28,637 nt of DNA from an uncultured archaeon (GCA_964631415.1 CAZVZC010000002.1:1-28637); one strand, 5' to 3'; numbered from the stretch's first letter, positions 1,061-16,974 are shown. Notes: a model not told the origin generated them from the letters alone. Translations and numbers: made by a program.

Positions 1061-1604
1061 AAGAGGCCGGGGCTGTCCCATCCTGCCTCCTTGCTCAAGA
1101 AGGAGAGACATCAGGATGCCGTGTGGCAGAAGGTGTGTCGCCTCGACCGTGAGGTTTCCCGGTTGATTGCTTCGCGTACTGTCTGGTTCTGTGAGGAACA
1201 CAGCGTGAAGACCGTGTACTTCGAAGACCTGAGGAGCTATCAGGCGCCGCGAGGTCGGGGGGACCTTTCTTGGAGACTCTCCACAAACCTCTGGGGAGAA
1301 GTCATTGACACTGTACGATACATGCGAGAGTCACTGGGTCATAGCACGTACGGTGTGTGCACAGTGAACCCGCGCTACACCAGCCAGACCTGTCATGCGT
1401 GTAGGCAGAGAGGCATTCGGGTCGATAGCCGCGGGTCAAAGACGGAACAGAGAGGCGGAGAGTACTTCTACTGTCCGCACTGTGACTCACACATCCATGC
1501 AGACATCAATGCTGCTCGAAACGTGATGCACGTTCACGGTCTCAGTGCCGTTCCTGAGAGGACACAGGACACATGTCCTACCTTGTCCAACTTACAATGA
1601 ACGG
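1061..1604 (+). mobile_element. tnpB: Remnant of an IS200/IS605- or IS607-family element: N-terminally truncated TnpB (ORF 1091-1600) with right-end region
   Basis: RuvC-II 'VYFEDL', 'VNPRYTSQTC', Zn ribbon CHAC...CPHC and RuvC-III 'HADINAARN' are present. WED/REC and RuvC-I are absent. No transposase in the window. Confidence 0.85.
1520..1604 (+). ncRNA. Candidate omegaRNA (reRNA) scaffold / IS right-end hairpins
   Basis: Three consecutive stem-loops right after DINAARN: aacgtg-atg-cacgtt (1520-1534), tctcag-N8-ctgaga (1540-1559), and nested ggaca-c-aggac-acat-gtcct-acct-tgtcc (1560-1588). This is where TnpB omegaRNAs are encoded. Confidence 0.45.
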
Positions 1605-3292: not shown

Positions 3293-3478
3293 CACTCGTC
3301 GATACTTCTAGGTTCGTTTCGCCGCCTCGGCGTGCCTATGTAGATGCCCATCAAATGGCCCTCACATACAGAAGGCTTTATCTCAGTAGAATTTCGGGTG
3401 TTTGCGGTTTCCGTCTGGCATTTGTGCGTAACAAGATATGTCAGCCGGAGCTTTCAAGGCGACAAGAGACGACGGCAA

Positions 3479-5185
3479 ATGGCCAAGGCAAGCAACCCGT
3501 TGATAGTACAGTCTGACAAGTCAATGCTACTTGAGGTCGATAACCCCCTCTATGAAGTGGCGCGGGACTCTCTTGCTCGATTCGCTGAACTGGTGAAGAG
3601 CCCAGAGTACGTTCATACTTACAGGATTACGCCGCTTAGCCTTTGGAATGCCGCTTCGACTGGGATGACGCCAGACGAGGTTGTGAAGACACTAGAAACA
3701 TATGCCAAGTATCCAATACCGGGCAATATTGCCCGTGAAATCATCGACTACATGAGCAGGTATGGGCAGATCTCCTTGGAAAAGGAGGGTGAGAGGTTGA
3801 TCCTCTCGTGTGCTACCCAGAACCTTGCCGAGGAGCTTTGGACGAACAAGAAAGTCCGTGAACTGATTCTTGAGAGACTGGACAAGAAGAGTATGCTAAT
3901 TGAACCGTCGATGAGAGGGCTCATAAAACAGGTCCTGATCGAGTTCGGTCACCCGGTGGAGGATGTTGCAGGCTATGCAGAGGGAGAGGAACTTCACTTT
4001 GAGCTCCGCTCCACAAGTCTCTCCGGGAGGCCTTTCAAACTCAGGGACTATCAAGAAGCATCTGCGGCTGCCTTTCATGCTGGCGGGGGAGTTTCAGGAG
4101 GTTCAGGTGTTGTCGTTCTTCCGTGCGGCGCAGGAAAGACGATGGTCGGAATGGGGATCATGGATAGACTTCAGACGTCCGTTCTGATACTTTGTCCTAA
4201 CGTTGTGGCAGTCCGCCAATGGATAACTGAACTGCTTGACAAGACGACACTCAAACCAGAGCAGATAGGCGAGTATACAGGGGACACGAAGGCCATACGT
4301 CCTGTCACTGTGGCGACATATCAGATTCTCACTTGGCGAAGATCGAAGGACGGTGAGTTCGAGCACTTCAAGATATTCGAGGCCAGGAAATGGGGTCTTA
4401 TCATATATGACGAAGTGCACCTCCTACCGGCCCCTGTCTTCAGAGTGACTGCTTCCATTCAGGCCACAAGAAGGCTGGGCCTGACGGCGACTCTGGTGAG
4501 AGAGGATGAACGAGAAGAGGATGTCTTCAGTCTTATTGGCCCGAAGAAGTATGACGTACCATGGAAGCAGCTCGAGGATCAAGGTTGGATTGCCACCGCA
4601 GTCTGCTATGAGATACGCATCGAGCTGCCAGAGGGATTGAAGCGGAAGTACGCAGTGGAAGAAGACAGACGGAAGTACCGCATAGCTGCTGAGAACCCGG
4701 TCAAGCTCGAGATACTTAGAAAGATTGTCGACCACCACCACAAGGACAACATCTTGGTGATTGGCATGTACCTAGATCAGCTCAATATCATTGCTCACGA
4801 ACTGGACGCGCCATTGATCACAGGGAAGACGAGCAACACGGAGCGGGGTGAACTCTATGGTGCCTTTCGCCGCGGTGAGCTCAAGACTCTGGTCGTGTCG
4901 AAGGTGGCGAACTTCGCCTTGGACCTACCCGACGCCAACGTCGCCATTCAGGTGTCCGGGACCTTTGGCTCGCGACAAGAGGAGGCCCAGAGGCTGGGCA
5001 GAATCCTCAGACCCAAGACTGATGGAAGCCTGGCAAGGTTCTATAGCATAGTGACAAAGGACACCCGTGACATGGACTTCGCGGCCAAGAGGCAGCTGTT
5101 CCTTACAGAGCAGGGCTATCAGTACATCATTGCGTCTGGCGAAGAAGAGATCTGGAAGGAACCGATTCAGAAGCTCTTCTGCTAG
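3479..5185 (+). CDS. xpb: DNA repair helicase/translocase XPB, ERCC3/Ssl2-type with N-terminal Helicase_C_3 domain
   Basis: NTD 'PLIVQSDKSMLLE...HTYRITPLSLWNAAS.G', 'LRDYQ', Walker A 'VLPCGAGKT', 'DEVH', 'LGLTATLVRED' (RED motif), 'GSRQEEAQRLGRILRPK'. Probable start ATG 3479; ORF track starts at 3344. Confidence 0.95.
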   Translation: MAKASNPLIVQSDKSMLLEVDNPLYEVARDSLARFAELVKSPEYVHTYRITPLSLWNAASTGMTPDEVVKTLETYAKYPIPGNIAREIIDYMSRYGQISLEKEGERLILSCATQNLAEELWTNKKVRELILERLDKKSMLIEPSMRGLIKQVLIEFGHPVEDVAGYAEGEELHFELRSTSLSGRPFKLRDYQEASAAAFHAGGGVSGGSGVVVLPCGAGKTMVGMGIMDRLQTSVLILCPNVVAVRQWITELLDKTTLKPEQIGEYTGDTKAIRPVTVATYQILTWRRSKDGEFEHFKIFEARKWGLIIYDEVHLLPAPVFRVTASIQATRRLGLTATLVREDEREEDVFSLIGPKKYDVPWKQLEDQGWIATAVCYEIRIELPEGLKRKYAVEEDRRKYRIAAENPVKLEILRKIVDHHHKDNILVIGMYLDQLNIIAHELDAPLITGKTSNTERGELYGAFRRGELKTLVVSKVANFALDLPDANVAIQVSGTFGSRQEEAQRLGRILRPKTDGSLARFYSIVTKDTRDMDFAAKRQLFLTEQGYQYIIASGEEEIWKEPIQKLFC

Positions 5186-6012
5186 TTGCCCTCAGGCCCG
5201 GGAGATTCGAACCGGGTGAGAGACTTGGCTATCTGCTTTATCTCATCAATGCTCATGCGTCTCACACCCTTGATTCCCACGTCGAACGTGACCCATATAG
5301 GATTGTGAGCCGCGCCCTTGACCTTCGTCACTCTAAACTGTTTGATGAGCATGCCGGCCTTGCTGAAGGCAGGCTCGTGTCTGGTGTCTACAATGACATC
5401 ACTGATGTAGGTGATCATATCATCGTACGCTGAGAACTGCTGCAGACCAGTATGGTAGGTGGCCCAGAATGGTATTGAAAGCTCCTTGCAGAAAGTTGCC
5501 CTCCATGCTTTCACTGCATTGACGGCCTTGAACGGATGGGACTGGAGGAAAAGCTCGGTTATGCTGTCCATGAATATCGCTCCGATCTTGCTACGATTGC
5601 TCTCTTGGGCAATAGCCCTTATCGCTTCGCCTATTTCGTCCGGCTCGCTGGGATCACGCACGAGACTGGTATGCTCGCTTGGTGCGGTACGGTGGAGTAT
5701 TTGCGTAGAGAAACAGTCGACTAGGCGTATCAACCCCTTGTCGAGCATCGTCGTGTAGTCCCAGCCAAGCGAACATAGATTCTGCAATACCGAGAGCGGG
5801 GTGTCTTCAAAGCAGACGTAGATGACGCTCTTGCCTGCCTCCATCATGCATTTGGCAATCTCATTGAGAATGACTGATTTGCCACCTCCACCAGGACCTC
5901 TTATGACTCCGAATGCGTTGCATGGAAAGCCTTTGGGAACCTCGTCATCCAAAGCATCTATGCCGGTCCTGTATAGGTTCTTACCCTTCTCTAAGAGGTC
6001 CTTATAGCTCAT
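5182..6012 (-). CDS. Single-domain KaiC/RAD55-like RecA-superfamily ATPase
   Basis: 'TGIDALD', Walker A 'GPGGGGKS', 'YVCFED', 'LVDCF', Walker B 'IFMDSIT', 'VTKVKG..H'. GGTGAGGTG RBS. Stop overlaps the xpb stop. Confidence 0.85.
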   Translation of the reverse strand: MSYKDLLEKGKNLYRTGIDALDDEVPKGFPCNAFGVIRGPGGGGKSVILNEIAKCMMEAGKSVIYVCFEDTPLSVLQNLCSLGWDYTTMLDKGLIRLVDCFSTQILHRTAPSEHTSLVRDPSEPDEIGEAIRAIAQESNRSKIGAIFMDSITELFLQSHPFKAVNAVKAWRATFCKELSIPFWATYHTGLQQFSAYDDMITYISDVIVDTRHEPAFSKAGMLIKQFRVTKVKGAAHNPIWVTFDVGIKGVRRMSIDEIKQIAKSLTRFESPGPEGN

Positions 6013-6080
6013 GCCGCCACCTCACCAAATGCGTGTCCGCGAAACAACCACGAAGCCGCTGGCCCTGCCGACTGATAATC

Positions 6081-7040
6081 TTACCTGAGGGAGGTCAGAT
6101 ACTGCATCTTGTCTTGGACATACCTGAATACTCTTGCTCCAGCGTTAGGAGCTAATGCAGTGTACTCAATCAGGCCGGCCTCCAGCCGCTCCAGAAACTG
6201 CAGGCTCCATCCCACAGCCGAAATGACTGCAAGGGGTCGTAGATTCTCGATTATGGGTAACTCATCGCTCACAGACAGGACTTCATGCCGAATACTCAGT
6301 ATTGAGCCCTCATCCTGACTGAACAAGTAAGCCAAGTCAAGGAGCGGCTCGCCAATGCTGCAAGACTCGAGGTCTATCAGCACGACCCGATCCGGTTGAA
6401 TGACAACGTTGGACTCCTGCAGGTCACCATGCATTGTTCTCCGTGACCAAACGCAGGACGAGTCAGTTATGTCCCCTACTCTCTCGACGACTCGTTCAAA
6501 TGACCCGAGAAGGCGGCCGAGGTTGGGTGACAAGGATGTAGCCCCCTGTGTGGACTGCTTGACCACGTCCGTGATACTTGACAGATAGTCAGAAGGCTGC
6601 CTGTAGGACTTCACGCCGGGCGGTCTGAGTGCCGAAAGACGAGCCAGCGCGACTCTGAGATTGCTCAGGTCATCGCCGGTCATCTCAGGCAAGCTTGACC
6701 TGACGACACCTTCGGCATACTCTGCCACCATGAACGGCGTACGCTCCTCATCATTCAGACGACCAATCTTCACAGGTTTCGGACACAGCCCATCTCGGGA
6801 GAGGAAGTCCATCACCTTGTATTCCCGGGTGTAGGGGTGCGACCTGAACGGGCCCTTCGTCGTTGGGAGTTTCAGGACAAACGTGCGTTCCTGTGAATAC
6901 GTCAAGAGAGTGATGTTGCTCCAACCGCCTAGGAGGGAAGGGTCAATCGTGATATCAAACTCGCCGCCTAAAGAGCGGCTTACTTGGTCCTCCAGTTCAG
7001 GTAGAGAGTGCCCATGCACAATCTTGACTTGAGGTTTCAT
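6081..7040 (-). CDS. Aminoglycoside phosphotransferase/choline kinase-family kinase
   Basis: 'LGGWSN' loop, 'FVLKL', 'RE..VM..L', Brenner motif 'HGDLQESNV', 'LIDLE', 'GEPLLDLAYL'. Confidence 0.85.
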   Translation of the reverse strand: MKPQVKIVHGHSLPELEDQVSRSLGGEFDITIDPSLLGGWSNITLLTYSQERTFVLKLPTTKGPFRSHPYTREYKVMDFLSRDGLCPKPVKIGRLNDEERTPFMVAEYAEGVVRSSLPEMTGDDLSNLRVALARLSALRPPGVKSYRQPSDYLSSITDVVKQSTQGATSLSPNLGRLLGSFERVVERVGDITDSSCVWSRRTMHGDLQESNVVIQPDRVVLIDLESCSIGEPLLDLAYLFSQDEGSILSIRHEVLSVSDELPIIENLRPLAVISAVGWSLQFLERLEAGLIEYTALAPNAGARVFRYVQDKMQYLTSLR

Positions 7041-7070
7041 GTTGGCAACTATGTCCCCTCAGCAAGTCAA

Positions 7071-7082
7071 AGTACTTAAAGA
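7071..7082. promoter_or_regulatory. Candidate shared TATA box for divergent genes
   Basis: TACTTAAA (TTTAAGTA on the - strand) in a 62-nt gap, ~23 nt before ATG 7103 and ~33 nt before ATG 7040. Confidence 0.45.
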
Positions 7083-7102
7083 GCACCGGGCACGGATGAC
7101 GC

Positions 7103-7390
7103 ATGAATGGAAGAGATGTCTTACTCATACTGGCACACCTCTTCAGAAAGCAAGGAGGCCCGGTCAAGATAGAGGAGGCCGTGGAGCTACTGTCATTCAG
7201 GTGGAGGTTTGGCACACCGAGCAACGTGAGAAGGATGCTGACCGTTGCACTCCAGAATGACCTCATCTCCAGAGATGGCGAACTACTTTCCCCTGTGTTC
7301 CTCTTTGACCGTCAGGTGCTGGGTCCAGACTTGGTGGGCAAGCTTCAGGACTCAATAGTGGTCGACGCGAAGTTTGAACCCATGCATTAG
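7103..7390 (+). CDS. Small archaeal winged-helix-like protein, DUF2240-like
   Basis: 'LAHLFRKQG...LSFRWRFGTPSNVRRMLTVALQNDLISRDGELLSPVF' matches the pattern I recall for the DUF2240 N-terminus. Confidence 0.6.
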   Translation: MNGRDVLLILAHLFRKQGGPVKIEEAVELLSFRWRFGTPSNVRRMLTVALQNDLISRDGELLSPVFLFDRQVLGPDLVGKLQDSIVVDAKFEPMH

Positions 7391-8502
7391 CTGGTCTTGA
7401 TCGACGTCATCTCGCCAATCGACGCCAAAAGGGCAGACAAATGGACGAATGGGTTCTTTGCCTGCGTAATGCGATATTCAATCTCTGCAATGCGTTGAAG
7501 GATCCGGTCTGTTGTCAGGGAATCTAGTGGTCTGTTCATTATGTCTGCTTGGATACCAATGCATAGCTCTTCAGGGCTGTAACCATCCACTGCCAACAGC
7601 CGCTTCATGAGATCTCTCCCCTGAGCAAACGATCCGTTGACAACAAGGGACACCATCTCTCGGACGCCTTTGGCAACCTGGCTCTCAGAGCACTCGTAGA
7701 CGACATCCTCTGTTATAGCTTCAACTCCTGCTGCACACACTTGAAGCAGATTGACGGCTCGACGCATGTCACCTGAGGACTCATGGGCAATCGCTCTGAA
7801 TGCTCTTTCATCACACATCACACGCTCCTTCGCCGCTATCGTCCTGAGGAACTTCTCGACGACATCGTCCTGCAAAGCTGGGAACCTGACAACCAAGCAT
7901 CGGGAAACAACAGCAGTGTTCCAGCCTGCGAGAGATGGGGTTGTGAGAATGAAGCGACATGCGTCACTGTAGATCTCCATAGTCCTGCGCAACGCCTGCT
8001 GCATACTCCTATCAAGCGCATCAGACTCATCTAGAACTAGGTACTTGACCATCTCGTCGCTCACAGTGATGGTAGATGCAAACAGCCTGACGGCCTCGTG
8101 CAGAAGTTGGCTCTTGTTGGGCTCACCTGTGTGCCCTTTCAGAGCCATGTTCGTCTTTGCCTCTTTGTATACAGCAGACATGTACTCGTCCAGCTCTGTG
8201 CGCTCGCTGCGCTCGAGCTTCGACAGCGTCTGGAGGTCGCGCTTGGCCTTGGCGACTGTGGTTTCCCTCAGGTCGCGGACGTTCAGGTATTTGAAATTCG
8301 CAGTGAATGTATCCCCTAGGAGAGCCCGCGCAAAGACAAAGGCAGCGCAGGACTTGCCGGTGCCCGCTGGGCCGCAGAAGATCATGTTCTGACCAGTCTT
8401 CGACTCTGCAAGTTTCCTCAGTTGTGAGATGGCATCGTCCTGGCCGACGAAGTCTTCCCATGTCTGAGGGCTGTACTTTATGGACCAGAGCACTGGCTCC
8501 AC
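7387..8502 (-). CDS. Replication factor C small-subunit paralog (clamp-loader AAA+) with ~50-aa insertion
   Basis: 'W.IKY.P.TWEDFVGQ', Walker A 'GPAGTGKS', Walker B 'LVLDESD', 'QQALRRTME', 'SRC' Arg finger, 'GDMRRAVNLLQ', collar 'AEIEYRI'. Confidence 0.9.
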   Translation of the reverse strand: MEPVLWSIKYSPQTWEDFVGQDDAISQLRKLAESKTGQNMIFCGPAGTGKSCAAFVFARALLGDTFTANFKYLNVRDLRETTVAKAKRDLQTLSKLERSERTELDEYMSAVYKEAKTNMALKGHTGEPNKSQLLHEAVRLFASTITVSDEMVKYLVLDESDALDRSMQQALRRTMEIYSDACRFILTTPSLAGWNTAVVSRCLVVRFPALQDDVVEKFLRTIAAKERVMCDERAFRAIAHESSGDMRRAVNLLQVCAAGVEAITEDVVYECSESQVAKGVREMVSLVVNGSFAQGRDLMKRLLAVDGYSPEELCIGIQADIMNRPLDSLTTDRILQRIAEIEYRITQAKNPFVHLSALLASIGEMTSIKTS

Positions 8503-8687
8503 CTATCGCACCAAATGAGATGTCGTACGTGGACAAGATAAGCCTGCCCCTCACGACCTTGTTTCTAACGGTAGAAGGCTGCTCCCTTGAAACCAAAGGT
8601 TGACAACACCGAAACTATCATAAACCATTGATTTCAGGCTGGTTGTTTACGAATCTTCGAATGAATGACAGAGGACAGGCAGTCGAT

Positions 8688-10412
8688 ATGTCAAAGGAAA
8701 CGCTGGAGCAAGAACTCGAACACATGCTCAGAGAGGACCTAATCGCCGCATGCCAATACTGGGGTGTGGAGGTGAGCGGCTCTTCCTCAGGGACGTCTCT
8801 CATTAGACTGCTAGCTGAGAAGATGAGGTCAAAGCAGGCACGAGAGCGCGTCTTCAGCACCTTTGACTCCAAAGAGAAGGATCTTCTAGGGATGCTGTCT
8901 CTCAGCGGTGGGGCCATGAGCTATGACAGGCTCAAACCGTACAGAAAAGTGTACAGCTATGGCCAGCTGAACCAGACTGAGAAGGATCTTCGGAAGAAGG
9001 GAATCATAGTAAGGCGGGTGATGTCAAGACTCACTGAGTTTGGCAGAGAAGTGGCCGAGTTCAAGATACTAGACTTTTTGACTCCACATTTGGTCAGGTA
9101 CTTCTCGGAGAAGCCGGTCCCGTCTGGAGAGAGGCCGAAGCGGCTGAAGGTATTTGTTGACTACCGGGACACGCTCCTTGTCGACATGCTTCTCCTCGTT
9201 TCATATCTTGCGAAGCAAGAGATCCGGATGACGAGCTCATGGGAGTTTCCGAAGAGGGACGTCGACCGTGTGAAGGAAGCTATGTCACAACCAACGGACG
9301 AACGGTTCGATCTGGTTCAGAAGATGGCCCGAAAGGCAGGAGCCTATTCTATTGTTGAGAATGACAGAGCAGCGCCTTCCAAGATAGACCTCCTCTTTGC
9401 AGGACGACAGGATCAGGTCGCTCGTCGGCTGCTTCTCTCCTCTCTCGGGCATACGAGGGCCATATGGGCGACACCCGATCAGCCCACTGAGTACACTCTC
9501 AACCTCGCAGTCTGCCGGCTACGCGAAAGCAAGCAGGATGAATGGATAAGTGTGACAGAGCTGCGGGACTGGATTCGAAGTGAGCTATTCATTGAGAATC
9601 AGCCGCTGAAGTGGATTCAGGTTGATGAGGAGAGAGTAGGTACAGCACTTGACACACCCATACTCTTGGGCCTTCTCCAATGCGCATACAAGGGTAAGGC
9701 TCTCCAGTTCGTGAGCATGACTCCAATAGGCGCCACAGTGATTACAAACCAGACGCCCAAATCTGAGGAGAGTCATGAAACATTCCTCGTTCAGCCCAAC
9801 TTCGAAATCACCGTGTTCACTTCTGAGATGGACTATCATAAGATCTACCGGCTGATGCTCTTTACAGAGCCTATCAGGACAGATGTGGTGACCGCACTCA
9901 AGATAACTGACAAGTCGGTCTTCCAAGCTATCGAGATGGGACTCAGGGAACGAGATATACTTGGTTTTCTGGAAGAGGAGAGCAGTAAGCCAGTTCCTGC
10001 GAACGTAGTCCGCTCGATCAAAGACTGGATCTCTCAGGCAACGTTCGCGACAGTGTCGCAGGTCTTGTTGCTGGAAACGGATAGTGAGAAGGATCTTGAG
10101 AACCTTCTACTCATAGAAGAATTTGCTCACAGCGTTGTCAAGAGAGTAGGACAGATGGCTGTCGTGTTGCAGGGTGACATCGACAAGCTTACTGAGGACT
10201 TGCGGAGCCACAAGTGTAACGTTACGAGAGCCGACAAGAAGAAGCCGGAACCTCAGGAAACGCAAGGATCGGCAGTGGCTGAGCAGGTCCTGTTGTACGG
10301 CGAACAGACGCTCTCTGATGCTCCGGAGGCATGCGTAGGCTGCCCCGCGCTTCAATCCTGCAACAAGGTAGTGAGGCGGAAAGCCCACACGGCTAGGGAG
10401 AAGAACGAATGA
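8688..10412 (+). CDS. XPB-partner protein with Helicase_C_3/clutch domain, TFIIH p52 (Tfb2)-like
   Basis: 'FLVQPNFEITVF...LMLFTE...LKITDKSVFQAIEMGL...ILGFLEEES.KPVPANVVRSIKDW' follows the same pattern as the XPB NTD in this window and the Tfb2 clutch domain. No helicase motifs. Probable start 8688; ORF track 8628. Confidence 0.75.
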   Translation: MSKETLEQELEHMLREDLIAACQYWGVEVSGSSSGTSLIRLLAEKMRSKQARERVFSTFDSKEKDLLGMLSLSGGAMSYDRLKPYRKVYSYGQLNQTEKDLRKKGIIVRRVMSRLTEFGREVAEFKILDFLTPHLVRYFSEKPVPSGERPKRLKVFVDYRDTLLVDMLLLVSYLAKQEIRMTSSWEFPKRDVDRVKEAMSQPTDERFDLVQKMARKAGAYSIVENDRAAPSKIDLLFAGRQDQVARRLLLSSLGHTRAIWATPDQPTEYTLNLAVCRLRESKQDEWISVTELRDWIRSELFIENQPLKWIQVDEERVGTALDTPILLGLLQCAYKGKALQFVSMTPIGATVITNQTPKSEESHETFLVQPNFEITVFTSEMDYHKIYRLMLFTEPIRTDVVTALKITDKSVFQAIEMGLRERDILGFLEEESSKPVPANVVRSIKDWISQATFATVSQVLLLETDSEKDLENLLLIEEFAHSVVKRVGQMAVVLQGDIDKLTEDLRSHKCNVTRADKKKPEPQETQGSAVAEQVLLYGEQTLSDAPEACVGCPALQSCNKVVRRKAHTAREKNE

Positions 10413-11443
10413 CAGGGAAAGTCCTACCAGAGCAGCTCGTGGGAGAGTTCCTCGGAGTCGGCAGCGTTGGGGAATCTGACCCGAAGGCTGCTTTGCCTTA
10501 TGTGAAGAGGCTCAAGTTACCCTATGCGTATCAAGTCCCGAGAATCAAGGAAGAGGACATGATAAGGCAGTTCGGATCGCTTGTCGAGGGCTTTGAAGAG
10601 AAGGGTGACTACATACTCGACCTAGATCTGTATGCGTATCAAGAGATGACACAGAATGTATCGCCGCTCATCCCGGACCAGAGCCACGCGCACGGACTGT
10701 ATCTGATGATGGATGGAAGCCGCTACGAGTTCTTCAAGACACAGCAGACGGCGCCAGCCACTATGTGCTTTAGCACCAGAGGAAGCGACGGTAAGCAACT
10801 TGTGTCCCAGAGGATGTTTCATTTCTATTCATCACTTATGGCGAGAGTTGCGAAGGGCCAGGTCGAGCATCTGTCGCGGTCCTGCAAGACTATCATCCTG
10901 TGTCAGGACGACCCTGCTCTTGGATTCGTGACCAAACTGATGCTGGAGGATCGAGCTGACGGCCTTACCCTGAAACAGGTCATCGATGGTACAGAGAAAC
11001 TGTTCCCGAGGTCAGTTGTCCCAGCATACCACTGCTGCGATGACTGGCGACTGCTCTCCAAGGGCGGCTCTTACATCCTATGGGACGGCGTTCCCAAGAT
11101 CGTGCACATCGACGTACTGTCATTTCGACCAGAGATTGACCCGGGGCAAGCTGAGAGGATTAACTCCTTCATGGAGCGGGGAGGTGCACTTGGGCTGGGC
11201 GTACTTCCGAACGTTGATGATGCATTCGTCGCCCCAGTCGTTGAAACACTTCGAAGGAATCTGAAACCTGTGCTCGAGTCATTCCTAAAGAGCAGAGTCA
11301 GCCTCGACCTCATGCGTGACCGGGCAATGGTTTCGACACAGTGCGGCCTGTTCAGAGCCACGAGCTCGCTCTCAAAGGAGATTCACGAGAAGAGCAAGGA
11401 GTTCAGGTCAGTCTTCGAAGACACGATCAAGCGGCTTCTCTGA
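10409..11443 (+). CDS. Single-barrel MetE-like protein (UROD/MetE superfamily; core methionine synthase/methyltransferase-like)
   Basis: 'GVGS', 'Q..AP.T', 'QDDP', Zn-ligand-like 'HCC', 'LGLGVLP', 'STQCGL'. ATGA overlap with the upstream gene. Confidence 0.7.
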   Translation: MTGKVLPEQLVGEFLGVGSVGESDPKAALPYVKRLKLPYAYQVPRIKEEDMIRQFGSLVEGFEEKGDYILDLDLYAYQEMTQNVSPLIPDQSHAHGLYLMMDGSRYEFFKTQQTAPATMCFSTRGSDGKQLVSQRMFHFYSSLMARVAKGQVEHLSRSCKTIILCQDDPALGFVTKLMLEDRADGLTLKQVIDGTEKLFPRSVVPAYHCCDDWRLLSKGGSYILWDGVPKIVHIDVLSFRPEIDPGQAERINSFMERGGALGLGVLPNVDDAFVAPVVETLRRNLKPVLESFLKSRVSLDLMRDRAMVSTQCGLFRATSSLSKEIHEKSKEFRSVFEDTIKRLL

Positions 11444-11570: not shown

Positions 11571-12389
11571 ATGCAGGCACCCAGCAAGCAGCCCGGACGA
11601 GTGATGAAGTTCATTCAGGACTACAGAATGAAGATGCTGATTCCTGAGATCCTCGTCGTGTTTGGCGTCTGGTACATGAAACCAGACTCACTCTTGGGGA
11701 ATGTCTATGCTTTCCTGGGGCCAATAGGCTTACTTCTGCAACCACTGTTCACCATTCCAAGTGGACTACTGGCACTAGTCACTGCGTTCATGTTGCACGG
11801 TATCTACCCTCTGGACAACTTCAATGAGGGCAAAATCCCGGTACTGCCTAAGGGAGCAGTACTGATGATAATCATCTCGTTTGTGCTTCTGCCGTTGCTT
11901 GTGCTCATGCAGATGATAGGATACTTCATGACTGAAGCCACGGAGTACTTGAGCCGAAACCCGCTGTGGGAGAGAGTGGAAAGTGTAGGAGACCTGTTGT
12001 TCTACGCTGGGGCTATGTTCTTCGTCGCATTTCAGTGGTGGCTTGTCATACCCGTCTTCTTTCTGTCACAGGCTGTTGACGGGATTCATAAGATCGCCCA
12101 TCATGAAACGATTAATGCTAAGATCACAGCCCTCTTCTACTTCCTATGGCCAGTGACCATGCCCTTCTTCTTCGACCCAGTTGAGGTTATGGCGATGGCA
12201 GCCGTGTCGATTCCTGCCTTTGCCTTCTACTCATACATCAGACCATACTACACATACGTCACGGCCGTACACACATTGACATTCGCTATTCTTGTGGTCG
12301 TCAGCATGGTCATCTATCCGTACATGCCGCTGCTGAATGTCTGGTTCCCCGGCTTCATACCCCCACATGTGCCACCAAAGATATGGTGA
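11571..12389 (+). CDS. Polytopic membrane protein of unknown function (~7-8 TM)
   Basis: 272 aa, strongly hydrophobic. Possible RBS (GGAG/GAGG) and TA-rich element upstream. Confidence 0.7.
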   Translation: MQAPSKQPGRVMKFIQDYRMKMLIPEILVVFGVWYMKPDSLLGNVYAFLGPIGLLLQPLFTIPSGLLALVTAFMLHGIYPLDNFNEGKIPVLPKGAVLMIIISFVLLPLLVLMQMIGYFMTEATEYLSRNPLWERVESVGDLLFYAGAMFFVAFQWWLVIPVFFLSQAVDGIHKIAHHETINAKITALFYFLWPVTMPFFFDPVEVMAMAAVSIPAFAFYSYIRPYYTYVTAVHTLTFAILVVVSMVIYPYMPLLNVWFPGFIPPHVPPKIW

Positions 12390-15836: not shown

Positions 15837-15954
15837 TCTGATTACTTCCTGCGCAGTCGATGCTGCTTGGAGAGGGGCTCCTTAAGAGTTGCGTGCTGTG
15901 AGTCTTCTGGCGCAGGCACAATAGAGAGAGTTGAAGACATGACAGACGGCAATG

Positions 15955-15990
15955 CTTATTAATGCGTTCACAATAGTGAATAGCGAGGTG
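15955..15990 (+). promoter_or_regulatory. Promoter of the bcp pair with candidate operator
   Basis: CTTATTAA (15955-15962), inverted repeat TTCAC-aata-GTGAA (15967-15980), then RBS GAGGTG before ATG 15997. Confidence 0.45.
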
Positions 15991-15996
15991 AAATCT

Positions 15997-16479
15997 ATGG
16001 TAAAGGTTGGTGAGGTTGCACCGGACTTCGAAACGATCACCGAATCTGGCGAGAAGTTCAAACTGAGTGCTATGAGAGGAAAGAGACTGATGCTCTATTT
16101 CTATCCGAAGGACGACACGCCAGGGTGCACCGCAGAGGCCTGCTCAATACGCGACAGCTATGCCGCGTTCAAGAGGAACAATGCACTGGTGTTTGGTGTC
16201 TCAGGCGGGCCGGTCAATTCGCATAAGGATTTCAAGGCGAAGTATAGCCTACCATTTCCCTTGCTGATGGATGAGGAGTACAGAATCGCAAAGCTGTATG
16301 GAGTCTACGGCCCCAAGAAGCTGTACGGCAAGGACTACATGGGCATTGAGAGGACTACCTTCCTGATCAATCAACAAGGCAAAGTTGAAGGGATCTTCGG
16401 CGGCCCCGAAGGAGCCGAGAAGGTCGACACCAAAGAGCATGCCCAGCAAGTGACCAAGTTCTGGGGTTTCAAGCTGTAG
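15997..16479 (+). CDS. bcp: Peroxiredoxin BCP/PrxQ (2-Cys), copy 1
   Basis: 'APDF', 'YFYPKDDTPGCTAEAC', 'F..KY.LPFPLL.D', 'ERTTFLI'. RBS supports start 15997. Confidence 0.95.
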   Translation: MVKVGEVAPDFETITESGEKFKLSAMRGKRLMLYFYPKDDTPGCTAEACSIRDSYAAFKRNNALVFGVSGGPVNSHKDFKAKYSLPFPLLMDEEYRIAKLYGVYGPKKLYGKDYMGIERTTFLINQQGKVEGIFGGPEGAEKVDTKEHAQQVTKFWGFKL

Positions 16480-16494
16480 GAGGTATTCGACATA

Positions 16495-16974
16495 TTGGCA
16501 ATCGGTGATAAGGCGCCAGACTTCCAGACAACAACAGACACTGGAGAGTCGTTTAGACTCAGCGAAAAGATTGGAAAGAAGGTAGTTGTCTACTTCTACC
16601 CTGCCGATGATACACCCGGATGCACGGCCGAGGCTTGTTCCATCAGGGACAGCTACAACACCTTCCTAGAGATGGGAATCGATGTCTATGGCATCTCAGG
16701 TGGTTCTCGGGAGTCCCATGAGCGGTTCAAGCAGAAACACAGACTCAACTTCACCCTACTCATGGACGAGGACCATGCAATCGCCAAGCTATACGGAGTG
16801 TATAAGCCCACGAAGATTCTCGGAAAGGAGCTGTTGGGTGTCCAACGCGTAACCTTCCTGATAGACGGTGAAGGCAAGATAGAAGGGATATTCGGCGGCT
16901 CTGAAGGTCTTGACAAAGTGAAGACCCGCGAACACGCAGACCAAATACTCAACTTCTGGGGCTTGAAGCTCTAG
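16495..16974 (+). CDS. bcp: Peroxiredoxin BCP/PrxQ (2-Cys), copy 2
   Basis: 'YFYPADDTPGCTAEAC', 'QRVTFLID'. TTG start with AGGAGGT RBS. Confidence 0.95.
   Translation: MAIGDKAPDFQTTTDTGESFRLSEKIGKKVVVYFYPADDTPGCTAEACSIRDSYNTFLEMGIDVYGISGGSRESHERFKQKHRLNFTLLMDEDHAIAKLYGVYKPTKILGKELLGVQRVTFLIDGEGKIEGIFGGSEGLDKVKTREHADQILNFWGLKL

What the first reader, a model, noticed from the sequence alone, without database searches (positions are those of the whole stretch)
3479..10412. Candidate archaeal proto-TFIIH module: ERCC3-type XPB plus p52/Tfb2-like partner
Seen: this XPB carries the N-terminal Helicase_C_3 domain (~3494-3770), and a helicase-less protein at 8688-10412 carries a second copy of that domain (~9783-10035; LVQPNFEI..ITDKSV..A...G....I..FL......VP.NV...I..W). 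Established: classical archaeal XPBs lack this NTD and pair with Bax1, whereas eukaryotic XPB binds the p52 clutch domain through a pseudo-symmetric dimer of this fold. No bax1 is visible in the window. Inference: the two proteins form an XPB-p52-like translocase in a probable Asgard archaeon, relevant to the origin of TFIIH. Caveat: similar XPB/Helicase_C_3 pairs occur in bacteria, so horizontal transfer is an alternative.
Basis: partly seen in the sequence, partly recalled or inferred. Interest (0 to 1): 0.8.

Follow-up and report, generated by a model that had tools for sequence, protein, structure and literature searches.

The report
Thorarchaeal XPB with p52-like partner
This Asgard (Thorarchaeota) genome encodes the DNA-opening motor XPB and, 3.5 kb away, a motor-less protein predicted to fold like the whole of p52, the subunit that holds XPB in eukaryotic TFIIH. 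The same pair is common in bacteria and was found in no other Asgard lineage searched, so it is an old prokaryotic module and not a shown ancestor of TFIIH.

Summary
XPB (3479-5185) carries an N-terminal Helicase_C_3 domain. A helicase-less 574-aa protein (8688-10412) carries the only other copy in the genome.

An AlphaFold model of the second protein (pLDDT 89) matches TFIIH p52/Tfb2 chains as the top 19 PDB hits, colinear over about 380 residues: winged helices, clutch, C-terminal domain. Its clutch superposes on the XPB N-terminal domain at Z 16.

The pair is syntenic in 75 of 76 Thorarchaeaceae genomes and in one sister-family genome. It was found in none of 224 other Asgard genomes searched.

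It is not an Asgard speciality:
- The partner lies next to XPB in 69 of 80 bacterial loci.
- It lies next to XPB on Thermoplasmata-type contigs.
- The two proteins are fused, in both orders, in several metagenomic proteins.

Thor XPB is 64-70% identical to Chloroflexota XPB and 37-41% identical to eukaryotic XPB.

Phylogeny does not settle ancestry. AU tests reject neither a Thor+eukaryote clade (p 0.46) nor bacterial monophyly (p 0.52).

So the "XPB-p52-like pair" reading is supported, and the "proto-TFIIH of Asgard origin" reading is not shown. No p8, p44 or p34 homologue and no Bax1 was detected.

This scan has noted the same module before on other DNA, in at least 26 genomes.

The parts
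3479..5185 (+). Long-form XPB/ERCC3 DNA translocase, 568 aa. The open frame begins at 3344.
   Evidence: NCBIfam NF045503 at 864 bits over its full length. Pfam ResIII and ERCC3_RAD25_C. Walker A (VLPCGAGKT), DEVH, the RED loop (LVREDE) and motif VI (QEEAQRLGRILRP) are intact in the translation.
3500..3883 (+). XPB N-terminal domain (Helicase_C_3 fold), the presumed docking surface for the partner's clutch domain.
   Evidence: Pfam PF13625 at E 4.8e-35. The profile of the partner family also hits this stretch at E 2.8e-7.
8688..10412 (+). p52/Tfb2-like partner, 574 aa, with no helicase motifs. NCBI annotates relatives as 'helicase-associated domain-containing protein'.
   Evidence: AlphaFold2 model with pLDDT 89 and pTM 0.81. 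The top 19 Foldseek PDB hits are all p52/Tfb2 chains, best E 2e-11. VIA-align gives 6nmi_D at Z 13.3 with 379 residues aligned, model 55-508 against p52 44-458.
8688..9746 (+). N-terminal helical and winged-helix array of the partner, roughly aa 1-353, with three winged-helix-like units.
   Evidence: Secondary structure of the model. Aligns colinearly with the p52 N-terminal winged-helix region. On their own, aa 44-145 match MarR/ArsR-type winged helices at Z about 10.
9768..10043 (+). Clutch domain of the partner (aa 361-452), a paralogue of the XPB N-terminal domain.
   Evidence: VIA-align against human and yeast XPB N-terminal domains: Z 15-16, rmsd 1.2-1.7 A over 90-92 residues, 23% identity. 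Pfam Helicase_C_3 at nt 9786-10130.
10050..10217 (+). C-terminal beta-alpha-alpha-beta-beta-alpha domain (aa 455-510), at the position of the p8-binding C-terminal domain of p52.
   Evidence: Alignments to p52 run through to p52 residue 458-461 of 462 and to 6trs_B residue 491. This region is conserved in 110 family members.
10332..10409 (+). Thor-specific tail: a conserved Cys-x2-Cys-x5-Cys motif followed by a basic helix, after a disordered linker.
   Evidence: C549, C552, P553, A554, S557, C558 and N559 are invariant in 30 Thor sequences. Model pLDDT is 56-70 across the tail and below 50 only in the linker, aa 518-539. Bacterial and some archaeal relatives carry a WYL domain at their C-terminal end instead.
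5182..8502 (-). Conserved intervening genes on the other strand: a KaiC-like ATPase (5182-6012), an APH-family kinase (6081-7040) and an RFC small-subunit paralogue (7387-8502). They are syntenic neighbours and are not shown to belong to the module.
   Evidence: Pfam and NCBIfam matches. The order XPB - [KaiC] - APH - RFCs, then p52-like on the opposite strand, is kept in seven other Thorarchaeaceae genomes. The sister-family genome keeps XPB, RFCs and p52-like.

Best explanation
The window carries the Thorarchaeal version of a widespread prokaryotic two-protein module: a long-form XPB DNA translocase plus a helicase-less partner homologous in fold and domain order to eukaryotic p52/Tfb2.

Inferred mechanism, by analogy with TFIIH:
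- The partner's clutch domain pairs beta-sheet to beta-sheet with the paralogous XPB N-terminal domain.
- The partner's C-terminal domain rests against XPB RecA2 and tunes the ATPase.
- The winged-helix array and the Cys-rich basic tail bind DNA or other factors and direct the motor to its substrate.
- The likely role is DNA repair or another DNA-opening task. It is unlikely to be transcription initiation, which is ATP-independent in archaea.

Shown here: the domains, the fold match, the gene linkage, the fusions, and the congruent trees of the two genes.

Inferred: the physical complex, the ATPase regulation and the cellular role.

Evolution: the Thorarchaeia share the module with Thermoplasmata-type archaea. 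The module most likely crossed between Bacteria and Archaea by horizontal transfer. The data do not show that eukaryotes inherited theirs from this lineage.
For: Fold:
- Model pLDDT 89.
- p52/Tfb2 chains fill Foldseek ranks 1-19, E from 2e-11 to 1.5e-5, with 311-542 alignment columns.
- VIA-align gives Z 12.6-14.4 over 355-379 residues, colinear to the end of p52. The clutch against the XPB N-terminal domain gives Z 16, rmsd 1.2 A.
- A search that does not use Foldseek puts XPB and p52 (6trs_B, 289 residues aligned) at ranks 1-2.

Linkage:
- The pair was found in 75 of 76 Thorarchaeaceae genomes and 1 of 1 sister-family genome, a few kb apart on one strand wherever both lie on one contig.
- Synteny is kept in 8 genomes.
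- The partner lies beside XPB in 69 of 80 bacterial loci.
- It lies directly downstream of XPB on Thermoplasmata-type contigs.
- XPB-partner fusions exist in both orders: P0451, P0482 and P0492 one way, P0464, P0467 and P0487 the other.

Co-evolution:
- Thor XPB is sister to Thermoplasmata-type XPB, SH-aLRT 98.
- The Thor partner is sister to the clade holding the Thermoplasmata and Euryarchaeota partners, SH-aLRT 91.

Transfer:
- 64-70% identity to Chloroflexota XPB, 37-41% to eukaryotic XPB.
- Other Asgard genomes hold only short classical XPBs.
Against: - No binding or multimer prediction could be run, so the complex is inferred.
- In Thorarchaeia the two genes are not one operon. Two or three opposite-strand genes lie between them.
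- The sequence-level match to Pfam Tfb2 is below its threshold, 20.7 against 34.5 bits.
- A profile search of PDB sequences finds XPB N-terminal domains but not p52.
- TM-scores to p52 are low (0.24-0.41) because the domains sit at different angles.
- The direction of transfer is not resolved. Bacterial monophyly is not rejected (p-AU 0.515).
Confidence: 0.72

Rival explanations
1. Ancestral reading. The Asgard XPB-p52-like pair is the direct vertical forerunner of the XPB-p52 sub-module of TFIIH. Bacteria obtained theirs from archaea, or it dates to before the split.
For: - Eukaryotic XPB shares the N-terminal domain and a p52-type partner with this long-form family, not with classical archaeal XPB-Bax1.
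- The AU test does not reject a Thor+eukaryote clade: delta lnL 2.86, p 0.455.
- The AU test does not reject a root that leaves Bacteria monophyletic: p 0.515.
- An archaeal subclade (Thor plus Thermoplasmata-type) appears in both gene trees.
Against: - The pair was found in only one order of Asgard. It was not found in 224 genomes of 28 other Asgard families, which keep classical short XPBs.
- The Thor stem is short and lies within the span of bacterial diversity. Core identity is 66-70% to Chloroflexota against about 50-54% to Actinomycetota.
- The free tree puts eukaryotes at the base of the long-form clade, not with Thor.
- No p8, p44 or p34 homologue was detected.
Confidence: 0.12
2. The two proteins work independently. 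The helicase-less protein is a multi-winged-helix DNA-binding regulator that merely shares one domain with XPB, and the synteny is a frozen accident.
For: - The genes sit in different transcription units in Thorarchaeia.
- The N-terminal winged helix alone resembles MarR/ArsR repressors at Z about 10.
Against: - Near-perfect co-occurrence across Thorarchaeaceae.
- Adjacency across many bacterial phyla.
- Independent fusions in both orders.
- Congruent trees for the two genes.
- Whole-length colinearity with p52.
Confidence: 0.08
3. The pair is an anti-virus defence system: a helicase plus a sensor, as suggested by the WYL domains of relatives.
For: - Many bacterial and some archaeal relatives end in a WYL domain.
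- XPB gives weak generic hits to PADLOC's PbeA helicase models.
Against: - The partner matches no PADLOC model.
- The Thor locus is a stable core-genome neighbourhood (RIO kinase, RFC, peroxiredoxins) kept across genera, not a variable island.
- The Thor protein has no WYL domain.
Confidence: 0.05

Closest known systems
XPB-p52(-p8) translocase sub-module of eukaryotic TFIIH (human XPB/p52/p8; yeast Ssl2/Tfb2/Tfb5; PDB 6NMI, 7NVV, 6TRS, 8EBS)
   Same: - XPB has the same N-terminal domain and helicase core.
- The partner has the same domain order as p52: winged-helix array, a clutch domain with the XPB N-terminal fold, and a small C-terminal alpha/beta domain.
- p52 chains are the best PDB matches to the partner.
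- Greber et al. 2019 (PMC6422496) show that the clutch and the N-terminal domain form a pseudo-symmetric dimer that recruits XPB.
   Different: - No p8, p44, p34 or p62 was detected, so there is no TFIIH around the pair.
- About 14% sequence identity to p52, and Pfam Tfb2 below its threshold.
- The partner is about 110 aa longer than p52 and has a Cys3 plus basic tail.
- XPB lacks the eukaryotic N- and C-terminal extensions.
- The two genes sit in separate transcription units.
Bacterial XPB with its adjacent 'helicase-associated domain-containing protein' (for example in Actinomycetota, Planctomycetota, Chloroflexota, Bacillota and Spirochaetota)
   Same: - Same XPB family: NF045503, 50-61% identity over the full length, up to 70% in the core for Chloroflexota.
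- Same partner family. The profile aligns over nearly the whole length.
   Different: - Bacterial partners are usually 650-900 aa, often with a second Helicase_C_3 copy and a C-terminal WYL domain.
- In bacteria the partner lies next to XPB, or within a few kb of it, on the same strand.
- The function of the bacterial pair is also unknown. Balasingham et al. 2012 (PMC3353954) stated that p52 homologues had not been found in bacteria.
Classical archaeal XPB-Bax1 helicase-nuclease pair
   Same: An XPB-family SF2 translocase with a dedicated protein partner, thought to act in DNA repair.
   Different: - Classical XPB has a short DRD in place of the Helicase_C_3 N-terminal domain, and its partner is a nuclease.
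- It is about 28-33% identical to the window's XPB and forms a separate clade with 100% support.
- Bax1 is absent from this genome.
- Bax1 was present in 3 of 41 Thorarchaeaceae genomes; in the two whose classical XPB position was listed it lies directly beside that XPB.

Membership tests
XPB/ERCC3/Rad25 helicase, long form (NCBIfam NF045503) | Full-length match above the curated equivalog cut-off | tested here: met
   863.9 bits against a cut-off of 610, profile positions 1-547 of 548.
XPB/ERCC3/Rad25 helicase, long form (NCBIfam NF045503) | N-terminal Helicase_C_3 domain, SF2 motifs I, II and VI, and the RED loop | tested here: met
   PF13625 at E 4.8e-35. GAGKT, DEVH, VREDE and QRLGRILR are present in the translation and invariant in alignment A3.
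XPB/ERCC3/Rad25 helicase, long form (NCBIfam NF045503) | ATP-dependent 3'-5' DNA translocase or helicase activity | not testable with these tools
   Needs enzyme assays.
p52/Tfb2 (Pfam PF03849; TFIIH subunit) | Sequence match to the Pfam Tfb2 model above its gathering score | tested here: not met
   20.7 bits against 34.5, covering only profile positions 259-356. One archaeal relative, P0251, does pass at 38.4 bits.
p52/Tfb2 (Pfam PF03849; TFIIH subunit) | Domain order: N-terminal winged-helix array, clutch domain with the XPB N-terminal fold, C-terminal p8-type domain | tested here: met
   Colinear structural alignments of model 55-508 to human p52 44-458 (379 aa, Z 13.3) and to yeast Tfb2 35-507. 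p52 chains fill Foldseek ranks 1-19. This rests on a predicted model.
p52/Tfb2 (Pfam PF03849; TFIIH subunit) | Binds the XPB N-terminal domain through the clutch and stimulates the XPB ATPase | not testable with these tools
   No multimer prediction was on offer. Indirect support comes from operons, fusions and co-phylogeny.
p52/Tfb2 (Pfam PF03849; TFIIH subunit) | Heterodimerises with p8/Tfb5 through its C-terminal domain | tested here: inconclusive
   No free-standing copy of the C-terminal domain in the genome, by a profile of 110 C-terminal domains. No Pfam Tfb5 hit, but that search rang in no control genome. The genome is 85% complete.
p52/Tfb2 (Pfam PF03849; TFIIH subunit) | Anchored to p34/p62/p44 within a TFIIH core | tested here: inconclusive
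   No Ssl1 or Tfb4 match in the genome, but there was no positive control among the prokaryote control genomes. An XPD-type helicase lies elsewhere, at C1:38422-38925.
Prokaryotic 'helicase-associated domain' partner of XPB (Helicase_C_3 proteins) | Helicase_C_3 domain above the Pfam threshold, no helicase core, gene linked to a long-form XPB | tested here: met
   43.3 bits against 34.2. The family has 2201 representatives at E<=1e-3. Linkage is shown.
Classical archaeal XPB-Bax1 system | Bax1 (PF05626) nuclease gene next to a short DRD-type XPB | tested here: not met
   No PF05626 in the genome, with the control genomes ringing. No second XPB by tblastn.

The most novel reading that the evidence does not exclude
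The archaeal long-form XPB-p52-like clade (Thorarchaeia plus Thermoplasmata-type) is the lineage from which the proto-eukaryote took its XPB-p52 pair. On this reading the TFIIH translocase sub-module has an identifiable archaeal sister group, and the Thor pair is a living model of the pre-TFIIH state.
Probability: 0.12. Interest if true: 0.85.

Novelty: new variant of a known kind. Interest (0 to 1): 0.62.

Why it matters
Reviews still state that prokaryotes lack p52 and that archaeal XPB works only with Bax1 (PMC3353954, 2012; PMC13024598 and PMC13153155, 2026).

A whole-length p52 counterpart coupled to XPB in bacteria and in two archaeal groups means the XPB-p52 partnership predates eukaryotes. 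The regulatory heart of the TFIIH translocase was then recruited, not invented.

It also offers a simple two-protein system, free of the disordered eukaryotic extensions, in which to study how a clutch domain controls XPB.

For eukaryogenesis it is a caution. An 'Asgard plus eukaryote-like' gene pair can equally be a bacterial-type module with patchy archaeal distribution.

Tried and rejected
- A profile of 30 Thor partners against PDB sequences found only XPB N-terminal domains (E about 3e-3) and no p52, so sequence alone does not show the relationship.
- The first AlphaFold run, on a shallow Thor-only alignment, gave pLDDT 59 and was not used.
The contexts of the closest non-Thor partners had to come from a metagenome scan instead.
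- The broad archaeal-like alignment A4 had no stretch conserved enough to scan with.
- Defence-system reading: the partner has no PADLOC match.
- The conserved downstream ORF 11571-12389 was considered as a third component. It is a polytopic membrane protein with no informative relatives.
- ORF 10409-11443 overlaps the partner's stop codon but is missing from several Thor genomes.
- A free-standing p8-like protein was sought with a profile of the C-terminal domain and not found.
- The genome-contig scan returned only bacterial loci.
- Eukaryotic p52 sequences could not be obtained, so no p52 tree that includes eukaryotes could be built.
- The literature searches found no paper linking Asgard, TFIIH and p52, and none describing a prokaryotic p52 homologue.

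Full report
**What is in the window**

The 28.6-kb window is contig C2 of a 2.16-Mb assembly that is 85% complete. The best hits to both proteins are named Candidatus Thorarchaeota, so the organism is an Asgard archaeon.

On the + strand lies an XPB gene. Its frame runs 3344-5185. The start that fits every homologue is ATG 3479, which gives 568 aa.

XPB matches:
- Pfam Helicase_C_3 at its N-terminus, E 4.8e-35
- ResIII and ERCC3_RAD25_C
- NCBIfam's XPB equivalog over its full length, 864 bits against a cut-off of 610

The helicase motifs and the RED loop are intact.

A second + strand gene (8688-10412, 574 aa) has no helicase motifs. It holds the only other Helicase_C_3 domain in the genome: 43 bits against a gathering score of 34. 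It also gives a sub-threshold hit to the last 100 positions of Pfam Tfb2, E 2e-4.

Between the two genes, on the other strand, lie a KaiC-like ATPase, an APH-family kinase and an RFC small-subunit paralogue.

**Is the second protein p52-like?**

By sequence the link is weak. A profile of 30 Thor orthologues finds XPB N-terminal domains in the PDB, not p52.

By structure it is clear. An exhaustive profile search gave 2201 relatives. An alignment of 142 of them raised the AlphaFold2 model from pLDDT 59 to 89, with pTM 0.81.

Foldseek against the PDB:
- It places human, yeast and Chaetomium p52/Tfb2 chains at ranks 1 to 19.
- E-values run from 2e-11 to 1.5e-5, with 311-542 alignment columns.
- XPB chains, matched at their N-terminal domain only, follow.

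VIA-align:
- It aligns 355-379 residues colinearly. Model 55-508 matches human p52 44-458 at Z 13.3. Yeast Tfb2 35-507 gives Z 12.6.
- The rmsd is large because the domains are hinged differently.
- The clutch domain (aa 361-452) superposes on the XPB N-terminal domain at Z 15-16, rmsd 1.2-1.7 A, 23% identity.

A search of 48,161 representative chains that does not lean on Foldseek again ranks XPB and p52 first and second. There 6trs_B aligns over 289 residues at Z 11.0. Single winged-helix regulators follow, matching only aa 44-145.

So the protein has the p52 domain order: a winged-helix array, a clutch, and a small C-terminal alpha/beta domain. After that come a Thor-specific disordered linker, an invariant C-x2-C-x5-C motif and a basic helix. 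All of this rests on a predicted model.

**Are the two genes functionally tied?**

In 301 Asgard genomes the partner was found in 75 of 76 genomes of the window's family and in the one genome of a sister family. It was found nowhere else, apart from one marginal hit.

Where both hits lie on one contig, they sit a few kb apart on the same strand. In eight genomes examined gene by gene, the order is kept: RIO kinase, XPB, [KaiC-like], APH kinase, RFCs on the opposite strand, then the p52-like gene. The sister family keeps XPB, RFCs and the p52-like gene.

Outside Asgard:
- A scan of species-representative genomes returned 80 bacterial XPB loci from Actinomycetota, Planctomycetota, Chloroflexota, Bacillota, Spirochaetota, Sumerlaeota, Hydrogenedentes and Pseudomonadota.
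- In 69 of them a member of the partner family lies next to XPB or within a few kb of it on the same strand. Most of the other 11 sit on short contigs or near a contig end.
- On five metagenome contigs of a Thermoplasmata-type relative, XPB lies directly upstream of the partner on four; on the fifth, a full-length ORF directly downstream of the partner was not identified.
- Six database proteins fuse the two, in both orders. XPB comes first in P0451, P0482 and P0492. The partner comes first in P0464, P0467 and P0487.

The two gene trees also agree:
- Thor XPB is sister to Thermoplasmata-type XPB, SH-aLRT 98.
- The Thor partner is sister to a clade that holds the Thermoplasmata and 'Euryarchaeota' partners, SH-aLRT 91.

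Operon linkage, fusion and co-phylogeny together make a physical partnership the best reading. No multimer prediction could be run, so binding remains inferred.

**Is it a proto-TFIIH of Asgard origin?**

Several results speak against the strong form of this claim.

- Other Asgard lineages hold only short classical XPBs. With Pfam ERCC3_RAD25_C they score 57-87 bits, against 139-181 bits for all but a few partial Thor matches.
- None of the 224 genomes from 28 other Asgard families has the partner or an XPB with the N-terminal domain.
- Thor XPB is 64-66% identical over its full length to Ktedonobacterales XPB.
- Its core is 66-70% identical to Chloroflexia and Ktedonobacterales XPB. It is 37-41% identical to fungal, cnidarian, red-algal and protist XPB.
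- No Tfb5, Ssl1 or Tfb4 homologue and no free p8-like domain was detected. The Pfam searches had no positive control, so this is weak evidence.
- An ordinary XPD-type helicase lies on another contig.

The tree, however, does not close the question. With classical Asgard XPBs as outgroup, the free tree puts eukaryotes on a very long stem at the base of the long-form clade. It places the Thor group six nodes deep among bacteria, nearest to Dehalococcoidia, Sumerlaeota and Hydrogenedentes or to Chloroflexota. Those nodes have only 82-91% SH-aLRT.

AU tests reject neither alternative:
- A Thor+eukaryote clade costs 2.86 lnL, p 0.455.
- A tree with Bacteria monophyletic scores 0.22 lnL better than the free tree, p 0.515.

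The position of the root and of the eukaryotic branch is therefore unresolved.

The case for horizontal transfer between Bacteria and the Thor/Thermoplasmata archaea rests on three things: the narrow archaeal and broad bacterial distribution, the short Thor stem, and the high identity to one bacterial phylum.

**Relation to the classical system**

This genome has no Bax1 (control genomes positive) and no second XPB. Three of 41 Thorarchaeaceae genomes do carry Bax1; in the two whose classical XPB position was listed, it lies directly beside that XPB. In this genome the long-form pair is the only XPB system seen.

**What is known**

- Greber et al. 2019 (PMC6422496) established that the p52 clutch and the XPB N-terminal domain share a fold and form the pseudo-symmetric dimer that recruits XPB.
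- Balasingham et al. 2012 (PMC3353954) noted the N-terminal domain in bacterial and some haloarchaeal XPBs. [quoted passage not shown]
- Two 2026 reviews still say archaea lack the other TFIIH subunits or a TFIIH-like assembly (PMC13153155; PMC13024598).
- Four full-text searches found no paper describing a prokaryotic p52 homologue or an Asgard TFIIH module. The library lacks most subscription journals, so this is not proof.
- Public annotation calls the protein a 'helicase-associated domain-containing protein'.
- This scan has noted the same module before on other DNA, in at least 26 genomes. These include four notes on Thorarchaeota-type genomes (three distinct regions) that reached the same verdict.

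**Verdict**

The pair is best described as the Thorarchaeal member of an old and widespread prokaryotic XPB-p52-like module, barely described in the literature. It is not a demonstrated Asgard ancestor of TFIIH.

That ancestral reading survives only as a minority possibility, about 0.12, which present phylogenetic resolution cannot exclude.

Noticed in passing
window 7387-8502 (-): An RFC small-subunit paralogue that scores below every NCBIfam equivalog cut-off (245 bits against 303). It is divergently placed against the p52-like gene, an arrangement kept across the Thorarchaeaceae and the sister family. It may be a variant clamp-loader subunit.
   Followed up: partly
window 5182-6012 (-): A KaiC/RadA-like P-loop ATPase whose 3' end overlaps the XPB stop codon by 4 nt in convergent orientation. 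It is present in some Thor genomes (L100, L104, L107) and missing in others.
   Followed up: partly
window 11571-12389 (+): A 272-aa polytopic membrane protein with no Pfam, NCBIfam, PADLOC or Atlas relatives. It is 68-78% identical across Thor genera and nearly always sits just beyond the p52-like gene.
   Followed up: partly
window 1091-1600 (+): A 169-aa ORF with a Cas12f1-like TNB domain (E 2e-14), probably a truncated TnpB or IS200/605-type remnant.
   Followed up: no
G182:C148:3588-5300, G221:C8:11360-13072, G206:C197:583-2295, G081:C127:612-2324 (one genus of Thorarchaeaceae): In four of five genomes of one genus the p52-like gene is read through one in-frame TAG. This could be a recoded codon, a shared pseudogene or a split gene. 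It was not examined.
   Followed up: no
P0451, P0464, P0467, P0482, P0487, P0492 (database proteins): Single polypeptides of 1016-1249 aa that fuse XPB and the p52-like partner in either order. One is from a Planctomycetes MAG. They may be natural single-chain versions of the complex, useful for structural work. Gene-calling artefacts are not excluded.
   Followed up: partly
L097:2156-3871 and L095:2947-4125 / L096:4471-5649 (Thermoplasmata-type metagenome contigs): Further conserved ORFs of 572 aa and 393 aa lie directly downstream of the XPB-partner pair. They were not identified and may be extra components in that lineage.
   Followed up: no
window 15952-16974 (+): Two tandem AhpC/TSA peroxiredoxin genes (175 and 159 aa). 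At least the first is part of the same conserved neighbourhood in several Thor genomes.
   Followed up: no
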